64,000 nucleotides of DNA. It comes from Escherichia coli (GTDB taxonomy: Bacteria; Pseudomonadota; Gammaproteobacteria; Enterobacterales; Enterobacteriaceae). Below, piece by piece: positions 35,908 to 41,451 of this stretch. The translations under genes were made by a program, and so were the position numbers. Numbering within the stretch: position 1 is the first letter of the stretch; every line of letters starts with the position of its first letter. Under the pieces are notes generated by a model. It was not told where the DNA came from and searched no databases. It saw nothing but the letters and a program-made list of their open reading frames with translations. The DNA is taken from the NCBI RefSeq assembly GCF_024223415.1, contig NZ_CP100500.1, one strand, 5' to 3'.

Positions 35908-36110
35908 AACCTCACTCCCAGCGGACGACGGCGACGTCGGGTTGTCCCCAGTACCGACTCCGCATCATTGATCGCCCGGTTAAGCTCATCCAGAGAAGCC
36001 GCCGTATATTCAATTCTGCGACCATCTTTCTGGACAGACACCACCCGTTTACCGGTTAATAAATCAAGGCGCGCCTGACGCAGCGCCTGCAGTTCAGCGA
36101 CTGTAACCAT
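35904..36110 (-). CDS. Head-tail joining protein W
   Basis: 68 aa; lambda gpW-like (..LTGKRVVSVQKDGRRIEYTAAS..). Confidence 0.88.
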   Translation of the reverse strand: MVTVAELQALRQARLDLLTGKRVVSVQKDGRRIEYTAASLDELNRAINDAESVLGTTRRRRRPLGVRL

Positions 36111-38022
36111 TCACTCCTCCGGACAGCTTCGCTGCCAGTTCTTTAAGGGTTGGCCGGGTCGTCTCTTCTTCCCGGGATTTTGCCAGTACAGCCAGATCAA
36201 GCTGCCAGCGTTGCACGGACACACGTAATGCCGCGTAGGCATACACCAGGCAGTCCAGCGCTTCGTTACGCCGCTTTTTGTTATCCCACAGCAGACGCAT
36301 CTTTCCTTTTTCCCACTTCTCCACAAGCTCTTCCGCGACCAGTTGCTGCGCCTCTGTCTGCGAAAAAATCTCCGGATCATCAGGAAAACGGATGGCATAC
36401 GACGTGGATTCATCCGCAGGCGTGGGAGCGGCTTTCATACGGGCATAGAGAATTTCTTTTGCGGTGTCCGTCCCCACTTCACACAGATACACGCCCCGCT
36501 GATTGCGGGTTTTTGGCATGGTGATCACCGGCTTGCCATAGACAGATGCGCCTTTTACCGGCAGCACCCGGAAAACACCGTGTTTTTTTGACCTCTGATA
36601 AACGATTTCGCCATCGATCCCCCCGATGTCCCAGCAGACACGGGAAATGGTCATTTCGGTTCCGTCTGCATGGCAGTATTTTTTGTTGATCGCCGCATCC
36701 ACACGTAACAGCGTCTCTTCCTCATCGGGACGTCCCATAATGATGATTTTATCCACCAGAAAGGCTTCCTCTCCCGGAGCCCATCCCCAGACATACATCT
36801 CAAAACGGTTTCGCTGCGAGTCAATGCCCGCCGTCAGATAAACCACCCGGGCAGGCACCGCCGCCGTGTAACGCACAACCTTATCCATCAGTACCTGGTG
36901 ATCGAGTTTTTCGCCCACGGCCTCTTCCCAGGTCTCGCCCAGCGTGGTGTTCACAAAGGTTTTCAGGCCGTTGGGATCTTTCAGTGCATCCAGCCAGTCA
37001 TAGACTATCTGTACCCAGGTGGTGAACGGACTGTACGCCGTCCAGATATGGAAAGTGATGGAGCGCGGCGGCGGAATTTCATCACCCCGGGCGCTGAAAA
37101 ACGTCAGACCGTCACGGGTCCACATCCCCGTGTTTTCACAGATCCACCGCCCGTTACTCTGGTCAAGCTCAGACTGATGGATCACACAGCCATGATGCTC
37201 ACAAAGGTAGAAAACACTTTCTGGCTTATTCTTCTCCCACTTAAGACCGAAAGCCGAGGCATCATCACCAAATTTCAGATACTGCTCCTCCCCACAGTGC
37301 GGACAGGGCACATAAAAACGCATGAAATGTGCCGACTCGTTAGCGGCTTTTTCGATCTGGCAGGAGCCTTTGATTTTAGGCGTCGAGCCGCGAATGGATT
37401 TTGGCCATACAGAGCCCTCAATACGCTTATCCCCCAGCAGGGTTGGCGAGCCCTCTTTTTCAACATCAGGTTCAAACGATGAGAGTTCGTCATAGCAGAC
37501 CACGTCCACGGATTTTTCACGGTAGTTTTTGGCGGCAGCGCCGCCCAGGCACCAGAAACCGACGCCCGATGAAAAGCGTTTCAGCGTGAGGGTATTATCA
37601 CGATGTTTACGACCCAGCCATGGGGAAAGGTCTTTCAGGCATGGCACGTCCCTAATCGTCGTCTCCACGTGAGACTTCATAAAATCTTCAGCGGCAGAAT
37701 CCGTGGGCTGAAAAAGCAGACTGTTTCGGGATTTATGCTCAATAAAATACCCGACCACCCCCAGCAACATCTTTGTATAACCAATACGGGCAGATTTAAT
37801 CAGATTAACAGTGCGGATCAGGTCATTACCCATACTGTTCATGATGGCGATCTGGAACGGCAGCGTTTTCCATTCGCCGTCACCGTATGAGGATTCTTTA
37901 GGCAGATAATAATACTGGTCAGCCCATTCAACTGCCGTCATCGGTACAACCCTGACCAGAGGCTGCAGCGCAACCGAAACGGCAGCCATCAGATTATTCA
38001 GTTGTTGCTCTGATATATTCAT
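36094..38022 (-). CDS. Terminase large subunit A
   Basis: ATG at 38022 gives MNISEQQLNNL..; lambda gpA-like over full length. Confidence 0.93.
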   Translation of the reverse strand: MNISEQQLNNLMAAVSVALQPLVRVVPMTAVEWADQYYYLPKESSYGDGEWKTLPFQIAIMNSMGNDLIRTVNLIKSARIGYTKMLLGVVGYFIEHKSRNSLLFQPTDSAAEDFMKSHVETTIRDVPCLKDLSPWLGRKHRDNTLTLKRFSSGVGFWCLGGAAAKNYREKSVDVVCYDELSSFEPDVEKEGSPTLLGDKRIEGSVWPKSIRGSTPKIKGSCQIEKAANESAHFMRFYVPCPHCGEEQYLKFGDDASAFGLKWEKNKPESVFYLCEHHGCVIHQSELDQSNGRWICENTGMWTRDGLTFFSARGDEIPPPRSITFHIWTAYSPFTTWVQIVYDWLDALKDPNGLKTFVNTTLGETWEEAVGEKLDHQVLMDKVVRYTAAVPARVVYLTAGIDSQRNRFEMYVWGWAPGEEAFLVDKIIIMGRPDEEETLLRVDAAINKKYCHADGTEMTISRVCWDIGGIDGEIVYQRSKKHGVFRVLPVKGASVYGKPVITMPKTRNQRGVYLCEVGTDTAKEILYARMKAAPTPADESTSYAIRFPDDPEIFSQTEAQQLVAEELVEKWEKGKMRLLWDNKKRRNEALDCLVYAYAALRVSVQRWQLDLAVLAKSREEETTRPTLKELAAKLSGGVNGYSR

Positions 38023-38503
38023 CCAGCAAATCCGGTAATTTATCCCCTGCCCGCGCACACTGATTTGCCCCCTTCGCAATAAGGGTTTTCAGATGGTCAA
38101 GATGGCGCGGTGTTAAATCAGGAAACTGTCGTTGCATGGATAAAGGGATGGAATCAAGCGTACTGGATAACGCCATTGCCAGCTTGCTGAGGGCAAAAAT
38201 ACAGAATCCGGTGTCAATAAGTTTTCCTTTTGACACCTCATTTTTTAACTGCTGTGTAACAGCCTGTTCTGCTGTCAGTTCCCATCTGGCAATAAGCAAT
38301 TTCTCCTCATAGTCGTCTTCGCTATCGCCATCAGGCACATCGTTTTTACTTCTTCTCAGATACGATATGTAAAAATCACGCCAGGCATCCAGATCCAGTT
38401 GCCCTCGCTTATTCGATATCGGGGCACCCGGCAATTTCTGCAGTCTGCGAAGCTGGCGATCGGTCAGACTCAAATGCCTGGCAACTTCAGTCTGCGTAGC
38501 CAC
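37994..38503 (-). CDS. Terminase small subunit Nu1
   Basis: 169 aa; N-terminal HTH, C-terminal ..CIFALSKLAMALSSTLDSIPLSMQRQFPDL.. like lambda Nu1. Confidence 0.88.
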   Translation of the reverse strand: MATQTEVARHLSLTDRQLRRLQKLPGAPISNKRGQLDLDAWRDFYISYLRRSKNDVPDGDSEDDYEEKLLIARWELTAEQAVTQQLKNEVSKGKLIDTGFCIFALSKLAMALSSTLDSIPLSMQRQFPDLTPRHLDHLKTLIAKGANQCARAGDKLPDLLDEYIRATTE

Positions 38504-38570
38504 TGTTCACCTCGCAAAAAATCTCCCCTCATGCGTTTTAAACATGCATCTTGCGAGCAACTTTATGCAA

Positions 38571-38667
38571 ACGCACGCATATGTCCGGTTTGTTTGTACA
38601 TTTTTTGCACATGTCCGGTTCGCAGAAAGCATGTTTTTATATTTTTCATATAGTTAACTTGCAGAGA
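38571..38667. promoter_or_regulatory. cosB: three terminase R-element repeats (ATGTCCGGTT x2 direct, x1 inverted)
   Basis: Repeats at 38571-38580, 38601-38610 and inverted at 38658-38667 between cosN and Nu1. Confidence 0.6.
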
Positions 38668-38715
38668 AACCGGACATGGATCCCGGAAAATTTTCATAAA
38701 TAGCGAAAACGCGCG

Positions 38716-38727
38716 AGGTCGACGCCC
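38716..38727 (-). other. cosN cohesive-end site (GGGCGTCGACCT, one mismatch to lambda GGGCGGCGACCT)
   Basis: Minus-strand ACGGGGCGTCGACCTCGCGCGTTTTCGCTATTTATGAAAATTTTCCGG closely matches remembered lambda cos. Confidence 0.8.
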
Positions 38728-38878
38728 CGTAACCTGTTGGATCGCCGGAAAGGACCCGAAAAAAACGAGAATAATTATCACTTACAGCAAGAATCGAATC
38801 TGATCTATTCTGATGCTTGCTATTATGTGCCGGCACAAGTGCGTCGTTTACCGTCATTTCACACAGAGGCATCATCAA

Positions 38879-39130
38879 ATGAAAATCAGAAATATTCTCG
38901 CTATCTCCCTTGCAACATCATCCTTCAGTTGCCTGGCATTTAAACCCTCGCCCAATGTGCTACCAGGACCAACGAATCAACTAACTGCGGTAGAAAGTAA
39001 AATTATCGGACATTTTTATGCCCCACACAGTGCATTACCCGGAACAACCATCACAGGGACATGTGACGCCTCCCCCATTCCGGGATGCACCTGTCCGTTT
39101 TGTACTATGCTGCGTAGCCAAAACCGATAA
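38879..39130 (+). CDS. Small secreted cysteine-rich protein at the bor position (opposite strand to late operon)
   Basis: ATG at 38879 gives 83 aa with signal peptide MKIRNILAISLATSSFSCLA and C-terminal CxxxxxxxCxCxxC cluster. Confidence 0.5.
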   Translation: MKIRNILAISLATSSFSCLAFKPSPNVLPGPTNQLTAVESKIIGHFYAPHSALPGTTITGTCDASPIPGCTCPFCTMLRSQNR

Positions 39131-39373
39131 CATCCGCATTTACCTGGTATTCCATGATGAGTTCACGCAGCGACTGATAGAGTAAGGAAAGATGGTTAGC
39201 AAAAGCAAAGGCGCATTGCCGCCGCATGCTGCAGGCATTGCAACAGACGAGAGCAGGTATTTTTGACCAGTTGGAAAACTGCCAGCATACTTTGCCCGAG
39301 CATATCGCCATCTCATCGGAAACCAGTGCAACTCTTATTCATCGGGTTACACCAGAGAAAAAGAAGAAATGAA

Positions 39374-39400
39374 CAGTGAGGCGTTGTGTGGCATACAACG
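39374..39400. terminator. Hairpin GGCGTTGTGTGGCATACAACGCC, likely terminator between convergent cargo genes
   Basis: 9-bp perfect stem with T-rich flank. Confidence 0.45.
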
Positions 39401-39494
39401 CCTTCTTCCATCATTTCTCGTCAGCCATGACAAAAATATAACCGCTGGCTCTTTCATTTTTCTCCTGCTTCCAGCCCCTCTCTACCTGGAAGCA

Positions 39495-39821
39495 TCAGGG
39501 ACGTGATGGCGTAAAGATAAATTGTCTCTTCACTCCCTGACGGGGACTATTCTTTTCAAATCTCCATTTCGCCATGGCCTTCACCACTTCATCACGAAAC
39601 AAATTATGAGGCTCTGAGCGGAGAAAAACGATCCGTGTCACAGTCCCGTCAGCACCAATATCGAACTTAACCTCAACCAGCCCCTTGATATAATTTGCTG
39701 CAGCATATTCCGGATATCGTGGATACACCGTCACTAATTGCCGGGGCTCATCAGCTTTTTGCTGCGAGCATCCCACTGCCAGGGCAGATAACAGAAAAAG
39801 TAGTGAAAGGCGTCTTTTCAT
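39495..39821 (-). CDS. Lipoprotein consisting of a TonB C-terminal-like domain
   Basis: ATG at 39821 (AGGA RBS) gives 108 aa: lipobox LAVGC then ..YPRYPEYAAANYIKGLVEVKFDIGADGTVTRIVFLRS.. resembling TonB_C. Confidence 0.6.
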   Translation of the reverse strand: MKRRLSLLFLLSALAVGCSQQKADEPRQLVTVYPRYPEYAAANYIKGLVEVKFDIGADGTVTRIVFLRSEPHNLFRDEVVKAMAKWRFEKNSPRQGVKRQFIFTPSRP

Positions 39822-40453
39822 TTTTATTCCTACGGGTCTTATTCTGACAATATATCCTGTGTTCCAGACTGCCACATCACCACATCCTGTGCCATTATCT
39901 GACTCACATTACATACATCGCATCAGGATACAGTAGTAGCACTTTCTGTAATACAGCTTCCGGTTTCTTCCACCATCGCACCGGACTGGCGAGCATGAGG
40001 GACAAACCCGCGAACCATAAACGCGGTAAAAACCCGGTGTGCATCGTTTTTGATTATTCCCGCACACTCGCGCAGAAGGAGTTCCCCGTCGGGCTACGGT
40101 CATGGTTAATGCGGGAATACAGCGACGATACAGCGCATGATGTGTCAGGCTTGAATACCTTTATCCGTTAAAAGGGATATCAGTTAAGTTATCCCGTGTA
40201 GGGTATAAGCCATTATCAAAGCCACTCTGTAGGGAGTGGCTTTTGTAATGGCAATAAAAAAGCCCCGCGAATGCGAGGCTAAATCCAGGTATTTTTAATG
40301 ACTGGCTCTTATCTCAACGCAGCCCCTTACCGCGCGCCAGATGCTCAATATCAAGCATCAGCAATGAGATGTTTAATCTGGATTCACTCCAGAAGTGATC
40401 ACCACCCTGTCTACAGAGCCAGATGTGAAGGATGATGAGTAAAATTATCGCTA

Positions 40454-40921
40454 TCATCGAAGGCATTGCGTCCTGATGTATTCCTGAAGCGTTCTCAGTG
40501 CTGTTTGGTCGCGGATAATTCCGTCCCGGACACCGAGAACGTTTCGTCCAGCAACTGGAGAGAGTTCGACGGTGGCATCATTGCCCATGCCGGAGGCGCT
40601 GGAGGTTTCGGCTGAGGATGGCACAGGGCATTTTCCTTTGACGAGCACCCTGCCACCATTATCAAGCTTGCGCCGAAGAGCATCATTTTCAGCTTTCGCA
40701 TCAGCTAACTCCTTCGTGTATTTTGCATCGAGCGCAGCAACATCACGCTGACGCTGCTGCATGTCAGCGATGGTGGCGGTCGCCTGCTTCAGCTCACTGA
40801 CTTTTTTATCACGTTGTTCTTTGTAGGCTATGGCGTTATCACGGTAATGATTGACCGCCAACGACAGGCAGACGATGATGCAGATAACCAGAGCATAAAT
40901 AATCGCGGCGACTCTGCTCAC
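40454..40921 (-). CDS. Spanin inner-membrane subunit Rz
   Basis: GTG at 40921 gives (M)[29 protein letters not shown].. matching lambda Rz. Confidence 0.88.
40495..40701 (-). CDS. Spanin outer-membrane lipoprotein Rz1 (embedded in Rz, +1 frame)
   Basis: [21 protein letters not shown].. with proline-rich PKPPAPPAW, like lambda Rz1. Confidence 0.85.
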
Positions 40922-41451
40922 TGATCTATCCCCCAACAGGCTAATGCGCTTTCCTGGTCACGACGAATAACCTGTCCATAGCAGTTATTTGAACGGATAC
41001 GGCAGTCACGCCCACCATCCTTTATCCACCAGCGAATCGCCTCGCAGGCGCCTTTTCGATCACCGGCATTAAGCCGCTTATAAAACGTCGACGGGAAACA
41101 CTTACCGGGGCCAATGTTATAGGGACAGAATGACGCAATACCCGCTTTCTGTGGTTCGGTCAGAGGTACTTTAATATTGCGCTCCACCCATGCCAGTGCC
41201 TTATCACGTTCAATAGCGTTAACCTGGTCGCATTTTTCCTTCGACAGCTTCATTCCGGGAAAAACGGGTTTTCCATCCACCATCGTGGCACCCCGACAGA
41301 TGGTCCAGATGCCGGACCCATCGCGGTATGCCGTTGTGTGGTTACCCTCTTTTTCGTCCAGAAACTGATCAAGTATCTGAGGAGCAGATGCGCCAGCACC
41401 AATCAGCGCCAGAACGGCAGCCGACAGGCCGTATCTGATTTTTGCGTTCAT
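40918..41451 (-). CDS. SAR endolysin (T4-lysozyme-like GH24 with signal-arrest-release N-terminus)
   Basis: 177 aa; N-terminal weakly hydrophobic Gly/Ala-rich segment; resembles phage 21 R-type lysozyme. Confidence 0.82.

What the first reader, a model, noticed from the sequence alone, without database searches (positions are those of the whole stretch)
38879..39130. Small secreted cysteine-rich protein at the bor locus
On the strand opposite the late operon, exactly where lambda encodes the serum-resistance lipoprotein Bor, lies an 83-aa protein with a signal peptide and a C-terminal Cys cluster (TGTCDASPIPGCTCPFCT) that does not resemble Bor. Its orientation implies expression in the lysogen; a small disulfide-rich secreted peptide could be a toxin or bacteriocin-like peptide, or an envelope factor.
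Basis: seen in the sequence. Interest (0 to 1): 0.5.

Follow-up and report, generated by a model that had tools for sequence, protein, structure and literature searches.

The report
Unannotated prophage gene for zinc-linked periplasmic protein
The 83-codon reading frame is a real, conserved but almost never annotated gene for a small exported four-cysteine protein, carried next to the cos site of phage-21-like prophages in about a fifth of complete E. coli genomes, and its chromosomal relatives in other enterobacteria sit behind zinc-starvation (Zur) operators, which points to zinc handling in the cell envelope rather than to a toxin.

Summary
ORF 38879-39130 (+) encodes 83 aa, lies opposite the late operon about 150 bp from cosN, and has a signal peptide and a C-terminal 4-Cys cluster. 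It is unrelated to Bor.

It is a real gene. Against six homologues at 58-70% identity, synonymous sites are saturated (pS 0.71-0.84) while pN is 0.17-0.25. Only this frame is open in all seven.

It belongs to an undescribed family of ~80-aa proteins confined to Enterobacterales, with no Pfam, NCBIfam, PHROG or PDB match. The family signature is AxA|F (SPase I site, F+1 invariant), a helix, then G-T-C-x3-P-V-x-G-C-x-C-x2-C-T-x-L-R.

PGAP, the phage 21 curators and other phage annotators all miss it. The DNA is in 1,222 of 5,426 complete E. coli genomes.

Chromosomal members carry near-perfect Zur boxes: Kosakonia, Phytobacter, Erwinia, Enterobacter, Serratia and Citrobacter. In Salmonella the box precedes the upstream PPC gene. 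Some members neighbour aztD/ZnuA-family genes or a COG0523/Fur-family island.

The window copy has no Zur box.

Best reading: a prophage moron encoding a periplasmic protein involved in zinc handling, now uncoupled from Zur. The biochemistry (zinc binding versus disulfides) is inferred, not shown. A toxin or bacteriocin role is unsupported.

The parts
38879..39130 (+). Protein-coding gene: 83 codons plus stop, precursor of a small exported four-cysteine protein
   Evidence: ORF. Purifying selection and frame specificity. Intact 83-aa ORF in 6 of 6 E. coli and phage copies examined. No indels in 40 of 40 sampled E. coli genomes.
38879..38938 (+). Signal peptide (residues 1-20, MKIRNILAISLATSSFSCLA), predicted SPase I cleavage CLA|F
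   Evidence: In the 52-sequence family alignment, position -1 is Ala in 51/52, position -3 is A/C/V/S, and +1 is Phe in 52/52. K2 is present in 50/52. Mean Kyte-Doolittle hydropathy of residues 5-20 is 1.48. No SignalP run was available.
38939..39127 (+). Mature protein: 63 aa, 6.6 kDa, pI 8.5. Variable Pro/Ser/Thr linker, conserved helix (E39, F46, Y47, H50), then the Cys cluster
   Evidence: AlphaFold predicts helices 32-46 and 73-82, but at low confidence (pLDDT 57).
39062..39103 (+). Cys cluster C62-x7-C70-x-C72-x2-C75, within the motif G-T-C-x3-P-V-x-G-C-x-C-x2-C-T-x-L-R
   Evidence: C70 and C72 are invariant; C62 and C75 are present in 51/52. Exactly four Cys occur in the mature part of 50/52 members.
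38865..38869 (+). Shine-Dalgarno-like AGAGG, 9 nt upstream of the ATG
   Evidence: Read from the sequence. An SD-like GGAG/AGG at the same distance occurs in diverged homologues.
38818..38826 (+). Candidate extended -10 promoter element TGcTATTAT (inferred, untested)
   Evidence: My reading of the sequence. The consensus scan did not report it because the -35 is poor. It lies within the 150 bp between cosN and the ATG.
38716..38727 (.). cosN-like sequence AGGTCGACGCCC. It is the reverse complement of lambda GGGCGGCGACCT (recalled, not looked up here) with one mismatch, and marks the right end of the phage genome next to the gene
   Evidence: Sequence. The phage 21 linear record ends at the position aligned to window 38728. 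Exact AGGTCGCCGCCC occurs in L009 and L014.

Best explanation
The ORF is a genuine cargo gene (moron) of a phage-21-like lambdoid prophage.

Expression (inferred): it is probably transcribed from its own promoter, away from cos and opposite the late operon, so it can be expressed in the lysogen.

Export (inferred from sequence): the 83-aa precursor goes through Sec and is cut by signal peptidase I after CLA20. This releases a 63-aa basic periplasmic protein whose C-terminal 14 residues carry four invariant cysteines.

Family (shown): it belongs to a previously undescribed Enterobacterales family. Chromosomal members sit directly behind canonical Zur operators and in several genera lie next to zinc-uptake genes (aztD plus a ZnuA-family gene; COG0523/FolE2/Fur-family). 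The ancestral role is therefore part of the zinc-starvation response in the periplasm.

Mechanism (inferred): the most likely mechanism is zinc capture or hand-over by the Cys4 (+His50) cluster, or a disulfide-locked adaptor acting on a zinc-uptake component.

Window copy (shown): it has lost the Zur box, like the other E. coli prophage copies, the Klebsiella plasmid copy and the Salmonella TraT-DUF1090-linked copies examined. The lysogen would therefore make the protein independently of Zur (inferred). A plausible benefit is under host-imposed zinc limitation; the Salmonella copies sit beside the envelope virulence genes bor and omptin, or traT.

Shown: coding status, family, signature, distribution, Zur boxes, neighbours. 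Inferred: export, promoter, zinc chemistry, fitness benefit.
For: Coding:
- pS 0.71-0.84 against pN 0.17-0.25; omega 0.09-0.32 among the other homologues.
- Only this frame is open in 7/7 sequences.

Family:
- 30 representatives at E<=1e-3 in a library of 1.8 billion proteins.
- 84 clusters, all named hypothetical, from E. coli, Salmonella, Citrobacter, Erwinia, Serratia and Pantoea.
- Further members in Kosakonia, Phytobacter and Enterobacter and on Klebsiella IncF plasmids.

Export: AxA|F is conserved. Position -1 is Ala in 51/52 and +1 is Phe in 52/52.

Zinc link, Zur boxes:
- The Zur box core TGTTATnnnATAACA is matched 12/12 at 89-107 nt upstream of the ATG in Kosakonia and Phytobacter (L036-L040).
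- It is matched 11/12 in Erwinia (-116), C. koseri (-39) and a metagenome contig (-37).
- It is matched 10/12 in Serratia (-38) and Enterobacter (-98).
- It is matched 12/12 at 50 nt upstream of the PPC gene that immediately precedes the family gene in all Salmonella island copies.
- The published gamma-proteobacterial Zur box is GAAATGTTATANTATAACATTTC (PMC2706843).
- Specificity control: the only hit of >=11/12 in the 64-kb window is the real znuA-znuC operator at 3425.

Zinc link, neighbours:
- AztD (PDB 6CMK, E 1.8e-283) plus a ZnuA-family gene lie convergent with the family gene in Phytobacter. The 80%-identical AztD homologue is at the same place in Erwinia.
- A CobW/COG0523 GTPase and a Fur-family repressor lie next to the Klebsiella plasmid copy.

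Moron status:
- The gene is present in 1,222 of 5,426 complete E. coli genomes and in phage 21.
- It also occurs outside phages: beside icd with a cos remnant in C. koseri, and in Salmonella islands with bor/omptin or traT.
Against: - No transcript, protein or metal-binding data exist for any member.
- The window copy has no Zur box (best 7/12 within 200 nt; alignment). The zinc link is therefore transferred from relatives at 30-65% identity.
- Cys4 zinc sites are unusual in the oxidising periplasm. The four cysteines could simply form two disulfides.
- AlphaFold gives no confident fold (pLDDT 40 and 57), and Foldseek finds nothing.
- The zinc-gene neighbourhood is not universal. Kosakonia has pagP, SDR and HxlR genes; Serratia has peptide ABC transporter genes.
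- No intrinsic terminator is evident downstream, and the proposed promoter is only my reading.
- Some E. coli alleles are frameshifted and lose the Cys cluster (P0100 with 54 members, P0004, P0015). The prophage copy may therefore be dispensable in some hosts.
Confidence: 0.55

Rival explanations
1. A disulfide-stabilised periplasmic or envelope protein whose function has nothing to do with metal binding. Examples are an inhibitor or decoy acting on a host, phage or colicin component: superinfection exclusion, serum or antimicrobial-peptide resistance. Zur control in relatives would only be a cue for the host environment.
For: - The gene lies in the moron region together with a TonB_C lipoprotein.
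- In other genomes it lies beside bor/iss, omptin, traT and pagP.
- Periplasmic cysteines are normally oxidised (general knowledge).
- The E. coli Zur regulon is known to include a non-metal protein, the lysozyme inhibitor PliG (my recollection).
Against: - No match in PADLOC.
- No similarity to Bor, Cor, Llp or TraT-type proteins.
- Repeated adjacency to aztD/ZnuA-family and COG0523 genes argues for a role in zinc handling itself.
Confidence: 0.25
2. A secreted peptide toxin or bacteriocin, or an ST-enterotoxin-like pre-pro-peptide with an active C-terminal Cys-rich core.
For: - The layout is superficially like the STa precursor: signal peptide, variable middle, Cys-rich C-terminus (my knowledge).
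- It is found in virulence-associated islands in Salmonella.
Against: - No Pfam hit to enterotoxin or bacteriocin families at E<=1.
- The Cys pattern C-x7-C-x-C-x2-C differs from the six-Cys STa core.
- No immunity, processing or outer-membrane export partner is conserved.
- Many members are lone chromosomal genes in plant- and soil-associated genera under Zur boxes.
- The middle region with E39, F46 and Y47 is conserved like a folded protein, not a pro-peptide.
Confidence: 0.05
3. An outer-membrane lipoprotein, with Cys18 as the lipidated residue of a non-canonical lipobox SFS|C, functionally analogous to Bor.
For: - Cys18 is invariant within the close subfamily, and S17G is tolerated.
- The sequence fits the permissive PROSITE lipobox rule (my reading).
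Against: Across the family, position 18 is Ala in 34/52, Cys in 12/52 and Val in 5/52. A20 and F21 are conserved, which is the AxA|F pattern of signal peptidase I.
Confidence: 0.05
4. A chance ORF; the real genes are the ones annotated on other frames or strands in public records.
For: PGAP and the phage 21, ev017 and PhiR47_2 annotations do not call it. They call overlapping or neighbouring small ORFs instead.
Against: - Frame-specific purifying selection with saturated synonymous sites.
- Full-length conservation across at least ten genera.
- Conserved start context.
Confidence: 0.02

Closest known systems
Lambda Bor / Iss serum-resistance lipoprotein (PF06291)
   Same: A small envelope protein encoded by a moron in the Rz-cos region of lambdoid prophages, opposite the late operon. 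It is adjacent to this gene in Salmonella islands and near it in phage 21 and UM146.
   Different: There is no sequence similarity. Bor is a lipoprotein with a canonical lipobox, whereas this protein has an SPase I site. The two coexist, so this gene does not replace Bor.
ZinT (YodA) and AztD, Zur-regulated periplasmic zinc chaperones that feed ZnuA/AztC
   Same: Sec-exported periplasmic proteins. Relatives of the window gene sit behind Zur boxes, and in two genera they lie next to aztD and a ZnuA-family gene.
   Different: There is no homology. This protein is much smaller (63 aa). Its candidate ligands are four Cys rather than His-rich sites. Zinc binding is untested, and the window copy lacks the Zur box.
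Heat-stable enterotoxin STa precursors
   Same: A precursor of about 70-80 aa with a Sec signal, a middle segment and a Cys-rich C-terminus.
   Different: The Cys number and spacing differ. No Pfam match. The middle region is conserved. Family members occur in non-pathogens under Zur control.
Lambdoid prophage morons in general (e.g. lom, bor, sodC, and the TonB_C lipoprotein next door)
   Same: An independently oriented, patchily distributed cargo gene between lysis and packaging modules, also found outside phages.
   Different: It encodes a protein family with no described member, and it is missed by current annotation pipelines.

Membership tests
Bor/Iss (PF06291 Lambda_Bor) | Sequence match to the Bor family profile or to phage 21 Bor | tested here: not met
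   No Pfam family at E<=1. BLASTP against phage 21 Bor finds no alignment at E<=100.
Bor/Iss (PF06291 Lambda_Bor) | Lipoprotein signal with a conserved lipobox Cys | tested here: not met
   Position 18 is Ala in 34/52 family members. AxA|F is conserved instead.
Sec/SPase I secreted proteins | N-terminal basic residue, hydrophobic core, small residues at -3 and -1 | tested here: met
   K2 in 50/52; mean hydropathy 1.48 for residues 5-20; -1 Ala in 51/52; -3 A/C/V/S. This is a heuristic; no SignalP run and no experiment.
Zur regulon (gamma-proteobacteria) | Zur box GAAATGTTATANTATAACATTTC in the promoter region: family members elsewhere | tested here: met
   12/12 core matches in L036-L040 and upstream of the PPC gene in the Salmonella islands. 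10-11/12 in Erwinia, C. koseri, Serratia, Enterobacter and L017. Consensus from PMC2706843.
Zur regulon (gamma-proteobacteria) | Zur box in the promoter region: the window copy itself | tested here: not met
   Best match is 7/12 within 200 nt upstream. The aligned position is replaced by unrelated sequence.
Zur regulon (gamma-proteobacteria) | Zur binding and zinc-dependent repression | not testable with these tools
   Needs EMSA or ChIP, and expression under zinc chelation.
Heat-stable enterotoxin (STa) family | C-terminal six-Cys core (CCxxCCNPAC-type) and a match to the enterotoxin profile | tested here: not met
   Four Cys with spacing C-x7-C-x-C-x2-C. No Pfam match.
Prophage moron / lysogenic-conversion gene | Located between conserved modules, oriented independently of them, patchy among related phages, also found outside phages | tested here: met
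   The gene lies between Rz and cos/Nu1 on the opposite strand. It is present in 7 phage records only. It also occurs in islands, plasmids and chromosomes.
Prophage moron / lysogenic-conversion gene | Own promoter and terminator; expression in the lysogen | tested here: inconclusive
   Only a candidate extended -10 (my reading). The consensus scan is at background level. No terminator-like fold downstream.
Known anti-phage defence proteins (PADLOC) | Match to a defence-system profile | tested here: not met
   No family at E<=1.

The most novel reading that the evidence does not exclude
The family is a new class of Zur-controlled periplasmic zinc-handling mini-proteins. A Cys4 zinc site would function in the periplasm and feed ZnuA/AztC-type transporters. 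Phage-21-like prophages, Salmonella islands and Klebsiella plasmids would have captured it and, in E. coli prophages, freed it from Zur repression. Lysogens would then gain a constitutive edge against host zinc withholding. This would be a lysogenic-conversion function hidden in the classic phage 21 genome and in about 22% of complete E. coli genomes.
Probability: 0.3. Interest if true: 0.8.

Novelty: new variant of a known kind. Interest (0 to 1): 0.62.

Why it matters
- A conserved exported protein is missing from the annotation of phage 21 and of more than a thousand complete E. coli genomes. Screens that rely on annotation (proteomics databases, Tn-seq gene tables, pangenomes) cannot see it.
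- Linking the family to Zur operators and to aztD/ZnuA-family neighbours gives a directly testable function for an orphan family.
- It adds a candidate component to enterobacterial zinc acquisition, a process that matters for survival against calprotectin in the gut and urinary tract.
- If the prophage copy works without Zur control, it would be an example of a phage rewiring a host stress-response gene into a lysogenic-conversion factor.

Tried and rejected
Searches with no result:
- Pfam, PHROGs, NCBIfam and PADLOC scans of the protein and of distant members: no family.
- PDB sequence search with the family profile: nothing at E<=10.
- AlphaFold with 8 and then 52 sequences: pLDDT 40 and 57, so no usable fold. 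Foldseek against PDB found nothing, and further fold searches were not run because the model is unreliable.
- Consensus promoter/terminator scan: background level. Downstream RNA fold: no terminator.
- Rfam over 38400-40500: only sub-threshold chance hits away from the ORF.
- Literature: no paper contains the peptide motifs. The phage 21 genome announcement does not mention the ORF. Reviews and Zur-regulon papers searched do not describe such a protein.

Ideas rejected:
- Lipoprotein idea: considered because Cys18 is invariant in close homologues, and rejected once distant members showed Ala at that position.
- Conserved partner-gene idea: the 133-aa upstream genes in the two Salmonella contexts are unrelated, one PPC and one DUF1090.
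- The 105-aa version starting at 38813: rejected because the extension is not conserved.

Technical failure: the search for related loci with the 52-sequence alignment failed for lack of a conserved stretch. It was repeated with a 13-sequence alignment.

Full report
**1. The observation**

The window carries a lambdoid prophage whose late genes run on the - strand. They are lysozyme 40918-41451, Rz 40454-40936, Nu1 37994-38503 and the terminase large subunit 36094-38079.

On the + strand an ORF starts with ATG at 38879 and ends with TAA at 39130. It has 83 codons, and AGAGG lies 9 nt upstream.

The ATG is about 150 bp from a cosN-like AGGTCGACGCCC at 38716-38727. The linear phage 21 record ends at the position aligned to window 38728. 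The gene is therefore the last gene at the right end of a phage-21-type genome and reads inward from cos.

The statement 'exactly where lambda encodes Bor' is only roughly right. In phage 21, PhiR47_2 and E. coli UM146, bor/iss is a separate gene next to Rz, and this ORF coexists with it. The window has no bor.

**2. Is it a gene?**

Full-length homologues at 58-76% identity exist in other E. coli prophages, Citrobacter koseri, Salmonella and a metagenome.

- Nei-Gojobori counts on codon alignments give saturated synonymous differences (pS 0.71-0.84) against pN 0.17-0.25 for the window gene.
- Among the other homologues dN/dS is 0.09-0.32.
- In a six-frame control on the same alignment, only + frame 0 is free of stops in all seven sequences, with pN/pS 0.28. 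The other five frames contain 15-43 stops.
- The sequence just before the ATG (ATCATCA[AG]ATGAAA with an SD-like element) is conserved in diverged loci. N-terminal extensions from upstream ATGs are not.
- All six E. coli and phage copies I extracted encode an intact 83-aa protein.
- 40 of 40 E. coli hits sampled down the ranking align over exactly 252 bases without indels.

This is a real protein-coding gene.

**3. Annotation status and distribution**

The DNA is present at 95% identity or more in 1,222 of 5,426 complete E. coli genomes. It is also in seven phage records, including the classic phage 21.

None of the annotations I inspected calls the ORF:

- the CPT annotation of phage 21;
- PhiR47_2 and ev017;
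- PGAP for strains B771, UM146 and ECCNB12-2.

They annotate other small ORFs on other frames or strands instead. Only a handful of 'hypothetical protein' entries exist in nr. The phage 21 genome announcement does not discuss it.

**4. The family**

A profile search of 1.84 billion representative proteins found 30 hits. About 20 of them are full-length proteins of roughly 80 aa.

A second profile search found 84 clusters, all unnamed or 'hypothetical'. They come from E. coli, Salmonella, Citrobacter, Erwinia, Serratia and Pantoea. A genome scan added Kosakonia, Phytobacter, Enterobacter and S. enterica diarizonae. tblastn found copies on 66 plasmids, 64 of them Klebsiella.

No Pfam, NCBIfam, PHROG, PADLOC or PDB match exists.

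Conservation in a 52-sequence alignment:

| Position | Residue | Conservation |
|---|---|---|
| -1 (A20) | Ala | 51/52 |
| -3 (C18 in the window) | A/C/V/S | Ala 34, Cys 12, Val 5, Ser 1 |
| +1 (F21) | Phe | 52/52 |
| E39 | Glu | 48/52 |
| F46 | Phe | 45/52 |
| Y47 | Tyr | 49/52 |
| H50 | His | 35/52 |
| C62, C75 | Cys | 51/52 each |
| C70, C72 | Cys | 52/52 each |

- Exactly four Cys occur in the mature part of 50/52 members.
- The AxA|F pattern is that of signal peptidase I.
- Cys18 of the window protein is simply the -3 residue. The lipoprotein idea is therefore rejected.
- The mature protein is 63 aa, 6.6 kDa, pI 8.5.
- AlphaFold gives only low-confidence helices (pLDDT 40 with 8 sequences, 57 with 52). 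Foldseek finds nothing.

**5. Genomic contexts**

| Host | Context |
|---|---|
| E. coli | Always between Nu1/cos and the lysis genes, opposite strand |
| C. koseri | Beside icd (the phage 21 attachment gene, from my own knowledge), with a cos remnant upstream and no phage genes left |
| Salmonella, island type 1 | PPC-domain gene, family gene, bor, omptin |
| Salmonella, island type 2 | traT, DUF1090, family gene |
| Serratia, Erwinia, Kosakonia, Phytobacter | A lone chromosomal gene |

There is no conserved partner gene. The gene is thus an autonomous unit that moves between chromosomes, islands, plasmids and prophages.

**6. The zinc lead**

Upstream of the C. koseri and metagenome copies I noticed a palindrome, TGTTATTACATAAC. 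I scored all loci against the Zur-box core TGTTATnnnATAACA. The published gamma-proteobacterial consensus is GAAATGTTATANTATAACATTTC (PMC2706843).

| Locus | Match to core | Position relative to the ATG |
|---|---|---|
| Kosakonia and Phytobacter (L036-L040) | 12/12 | -89 to -107 |
| Erwinia (L027) | 11/12 | -116 |
| C. koseri (L008) | 11/12 | -39 |
| Metagenome contig (L017) | 11/12 | -37 |
| Serratia (L024, L025) | 10/12 | -38 |
| Enterobacter (L035) | 10/12 (a perfect palindrome) | -98 |
| All Salmonella PPC-type islands | 12/12 | 50 nt upstream of the PPC gene, which ends 95 bp before the family gene |

One Kosakonia site reads GAAATGTTATTTTATAACACTT.

In each chromosomal case the box lies between a co-directional or divergent upstream gene and the family gene. 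The family gene is therefore the obvious target.

- Background: 13 positions scored 11/12 or better among 372,527 in the loci held at that point, and those 13 include the true sites.
- Positive control: in the 64-kb window the single hit of 11/12 or better, at 3425, is the genuine znuA-znuC operator.

The neighbours agree with this. In Phytobacter and Erwinia the family gene converges on an operon made of a ZnuA-family gene and a 421-aa His-rich periplasmic protein. That protein is AztD (PDB 6CMK, E 1.8e-283), and the two genera share it at 80% identity. The Klebsiella plasmid copy lies beside a CobW/COG0523 GTPase, a Fur-family repressor and a FolE2-like ORF.

**7. The window copy**

It has no Zur box. 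The best match within 200 nt upstream is 7/12. At the aligned position, the prophage and plasmid copies carry unrelated sequence.

A possible extended -10 (TGcTATTAT, 38818-38826) is only my reading. The consensus scan was at background level, and no terminator is evident.

Expression in the lysogen is therefore inferred from three points: orientation, an intact translation start, and purifying selection on copies that sit in prophage remnants and islands.

Some E. coli alleles are frameshifted and lose the Cys cluster (P0100, P0004, P0015). Two others (P0003, P0006) carry a double frameshift that restores it.

**8. Interpretation**

- Most likely (about 0.55): a prophage moron encoding a Sec-exported periplasmic mini-protein. 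Its family belongs to the zinc-starvation response. The four Cys (possibly with His50) either bind zinc or lock a small domain that works with a zinc-uptake component. The prophage copy has escaped Zur control.
- About 0.25: a disulfide-stabilised envelope factor with a non-metal role, such as exclusion or resistance to host factors.
- About 0.05: a toxin, bacteriocin or ST-like peptide.
- About 0.05: a lipoprotein.
- About 0.02: a spurious ORF.

The evidence does not support a toxin.

**9. Novelty**

The kind of element is familiar: a moron encoding a small envelope protein, and a Zur-regulon accessory. The protein family itself has no described member, no profile in any library searched, and is systematically unannotated. 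I rate it a new variant of a known kind, with interest 0.62. The strongest open reading is a periplasmic Cys4 zinc-handling protein captured and deregulated by phages; it would rank higher if shown.

Noticed in passing
window 39495-39821 (-): A 108-aa lipoprotein (MKRRLSLLFLLSALAVGC, lipobox LAVGC) consisting of a TonB C-terminal domain (PF03544 E 2.6e-13; TIGR01352). It lies in the same moron region and is conserved with the finding in phage 21 and many E. coli. PHROG 1267 labels it 'Rz-like spanin', which looks wrong. It could act as a periplasmic TonB-box decoy, giving exclusion of TonB-dependent phages or colicins. That is speculation.
   Followed up: partly
window 2459-4225, Zur box core at 3425-3439: The host genes znuA (-) and znuC (+) with their shared Zur operator (gaagTGTGATATTATAACAtttc) lie about 35 kb from the finding. 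It is the only match of 11/12 or better to the Zur core in the window, and it served as a positive control.
   Followed up: yes
window 39105-39311 (-) and 39226-39372 (+): Small ORFs that public records annotate instead of the real gene (CPT_21_75 / WP_000881610.1; WP_258736186.1; WP_226454076.1; PHROGs 3744 and 4843). The first overlaps the 3' end of the 83-aa gene by 26 nt. Their coding status was not tested and may be doubtful.
   Followed up: no
window 39875-40454: There is no bor/iss gene in this prophage (tblastn with phage 21 Bor finds nothing), although phage 21, PhiR47_2 and UM146 carry bor/iss between Rz and the TonB_C gene. The window matches mEp460-type sequence here instead.
   Followed up: partly
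L004 5454-6255; L012 5456-6252; L034 3456-4249 (Salmonella): A perfect Zur box precedes a 133-aa PPC-domain gene, followed by the family gene, bor and an omptin gene, all on one strand, near a SPATE autotransporter and a SET-domain protein. This is a possible zinc-regulated virulence islet.
   Followed up: partly
proteins P0100, P0004, P0015, P0003, P0006 (E. coli alleles of the window gene): Frameshift alleles. Three read into the +1 frame after about residue 66-72 and lose the Cys cluster (P0100 has 54 member sequences). Two have a frameshift pair that replaces residues around 55-65, including C62, but restores the C-terminal CxCxxC.
   Followed up: partly
proteins P0034 and P0036 (metagenomic, Asn-rich, eukaryote-like): Proteins of about 610-630 aa with an N-terminal ubiquitin-like segment and 4-5 repeats of P[IL]PGCNCPKCT[NE]LRN. 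The repeats resemble the family's C-terminal PVPGCxCPFCTMLR motif (E 3e-8 and 3e-7). This may be convergence or a shared mini-module.
   Followed up: no
L009 and L014 about 6350 (+); L017 6292-6489 (+): In other contexts the family gene is followed on the same strand by further small signal-peptide or lipoprotein ORFs (e.g. MKYFALISALLLSACAGPA...). At least one of them is not called by the gene finder.
   Followed up: no
L008 about 5930-5960 (C. koseri, beside icd): A cos-like remnant (ccgcgaggtcg...) lies upstream of the family gene, with no phage genes left. This suggests that a decayed phage-21-like prophage at icd retained only this gene, and here it has a Zur box.
   Followed up: partly
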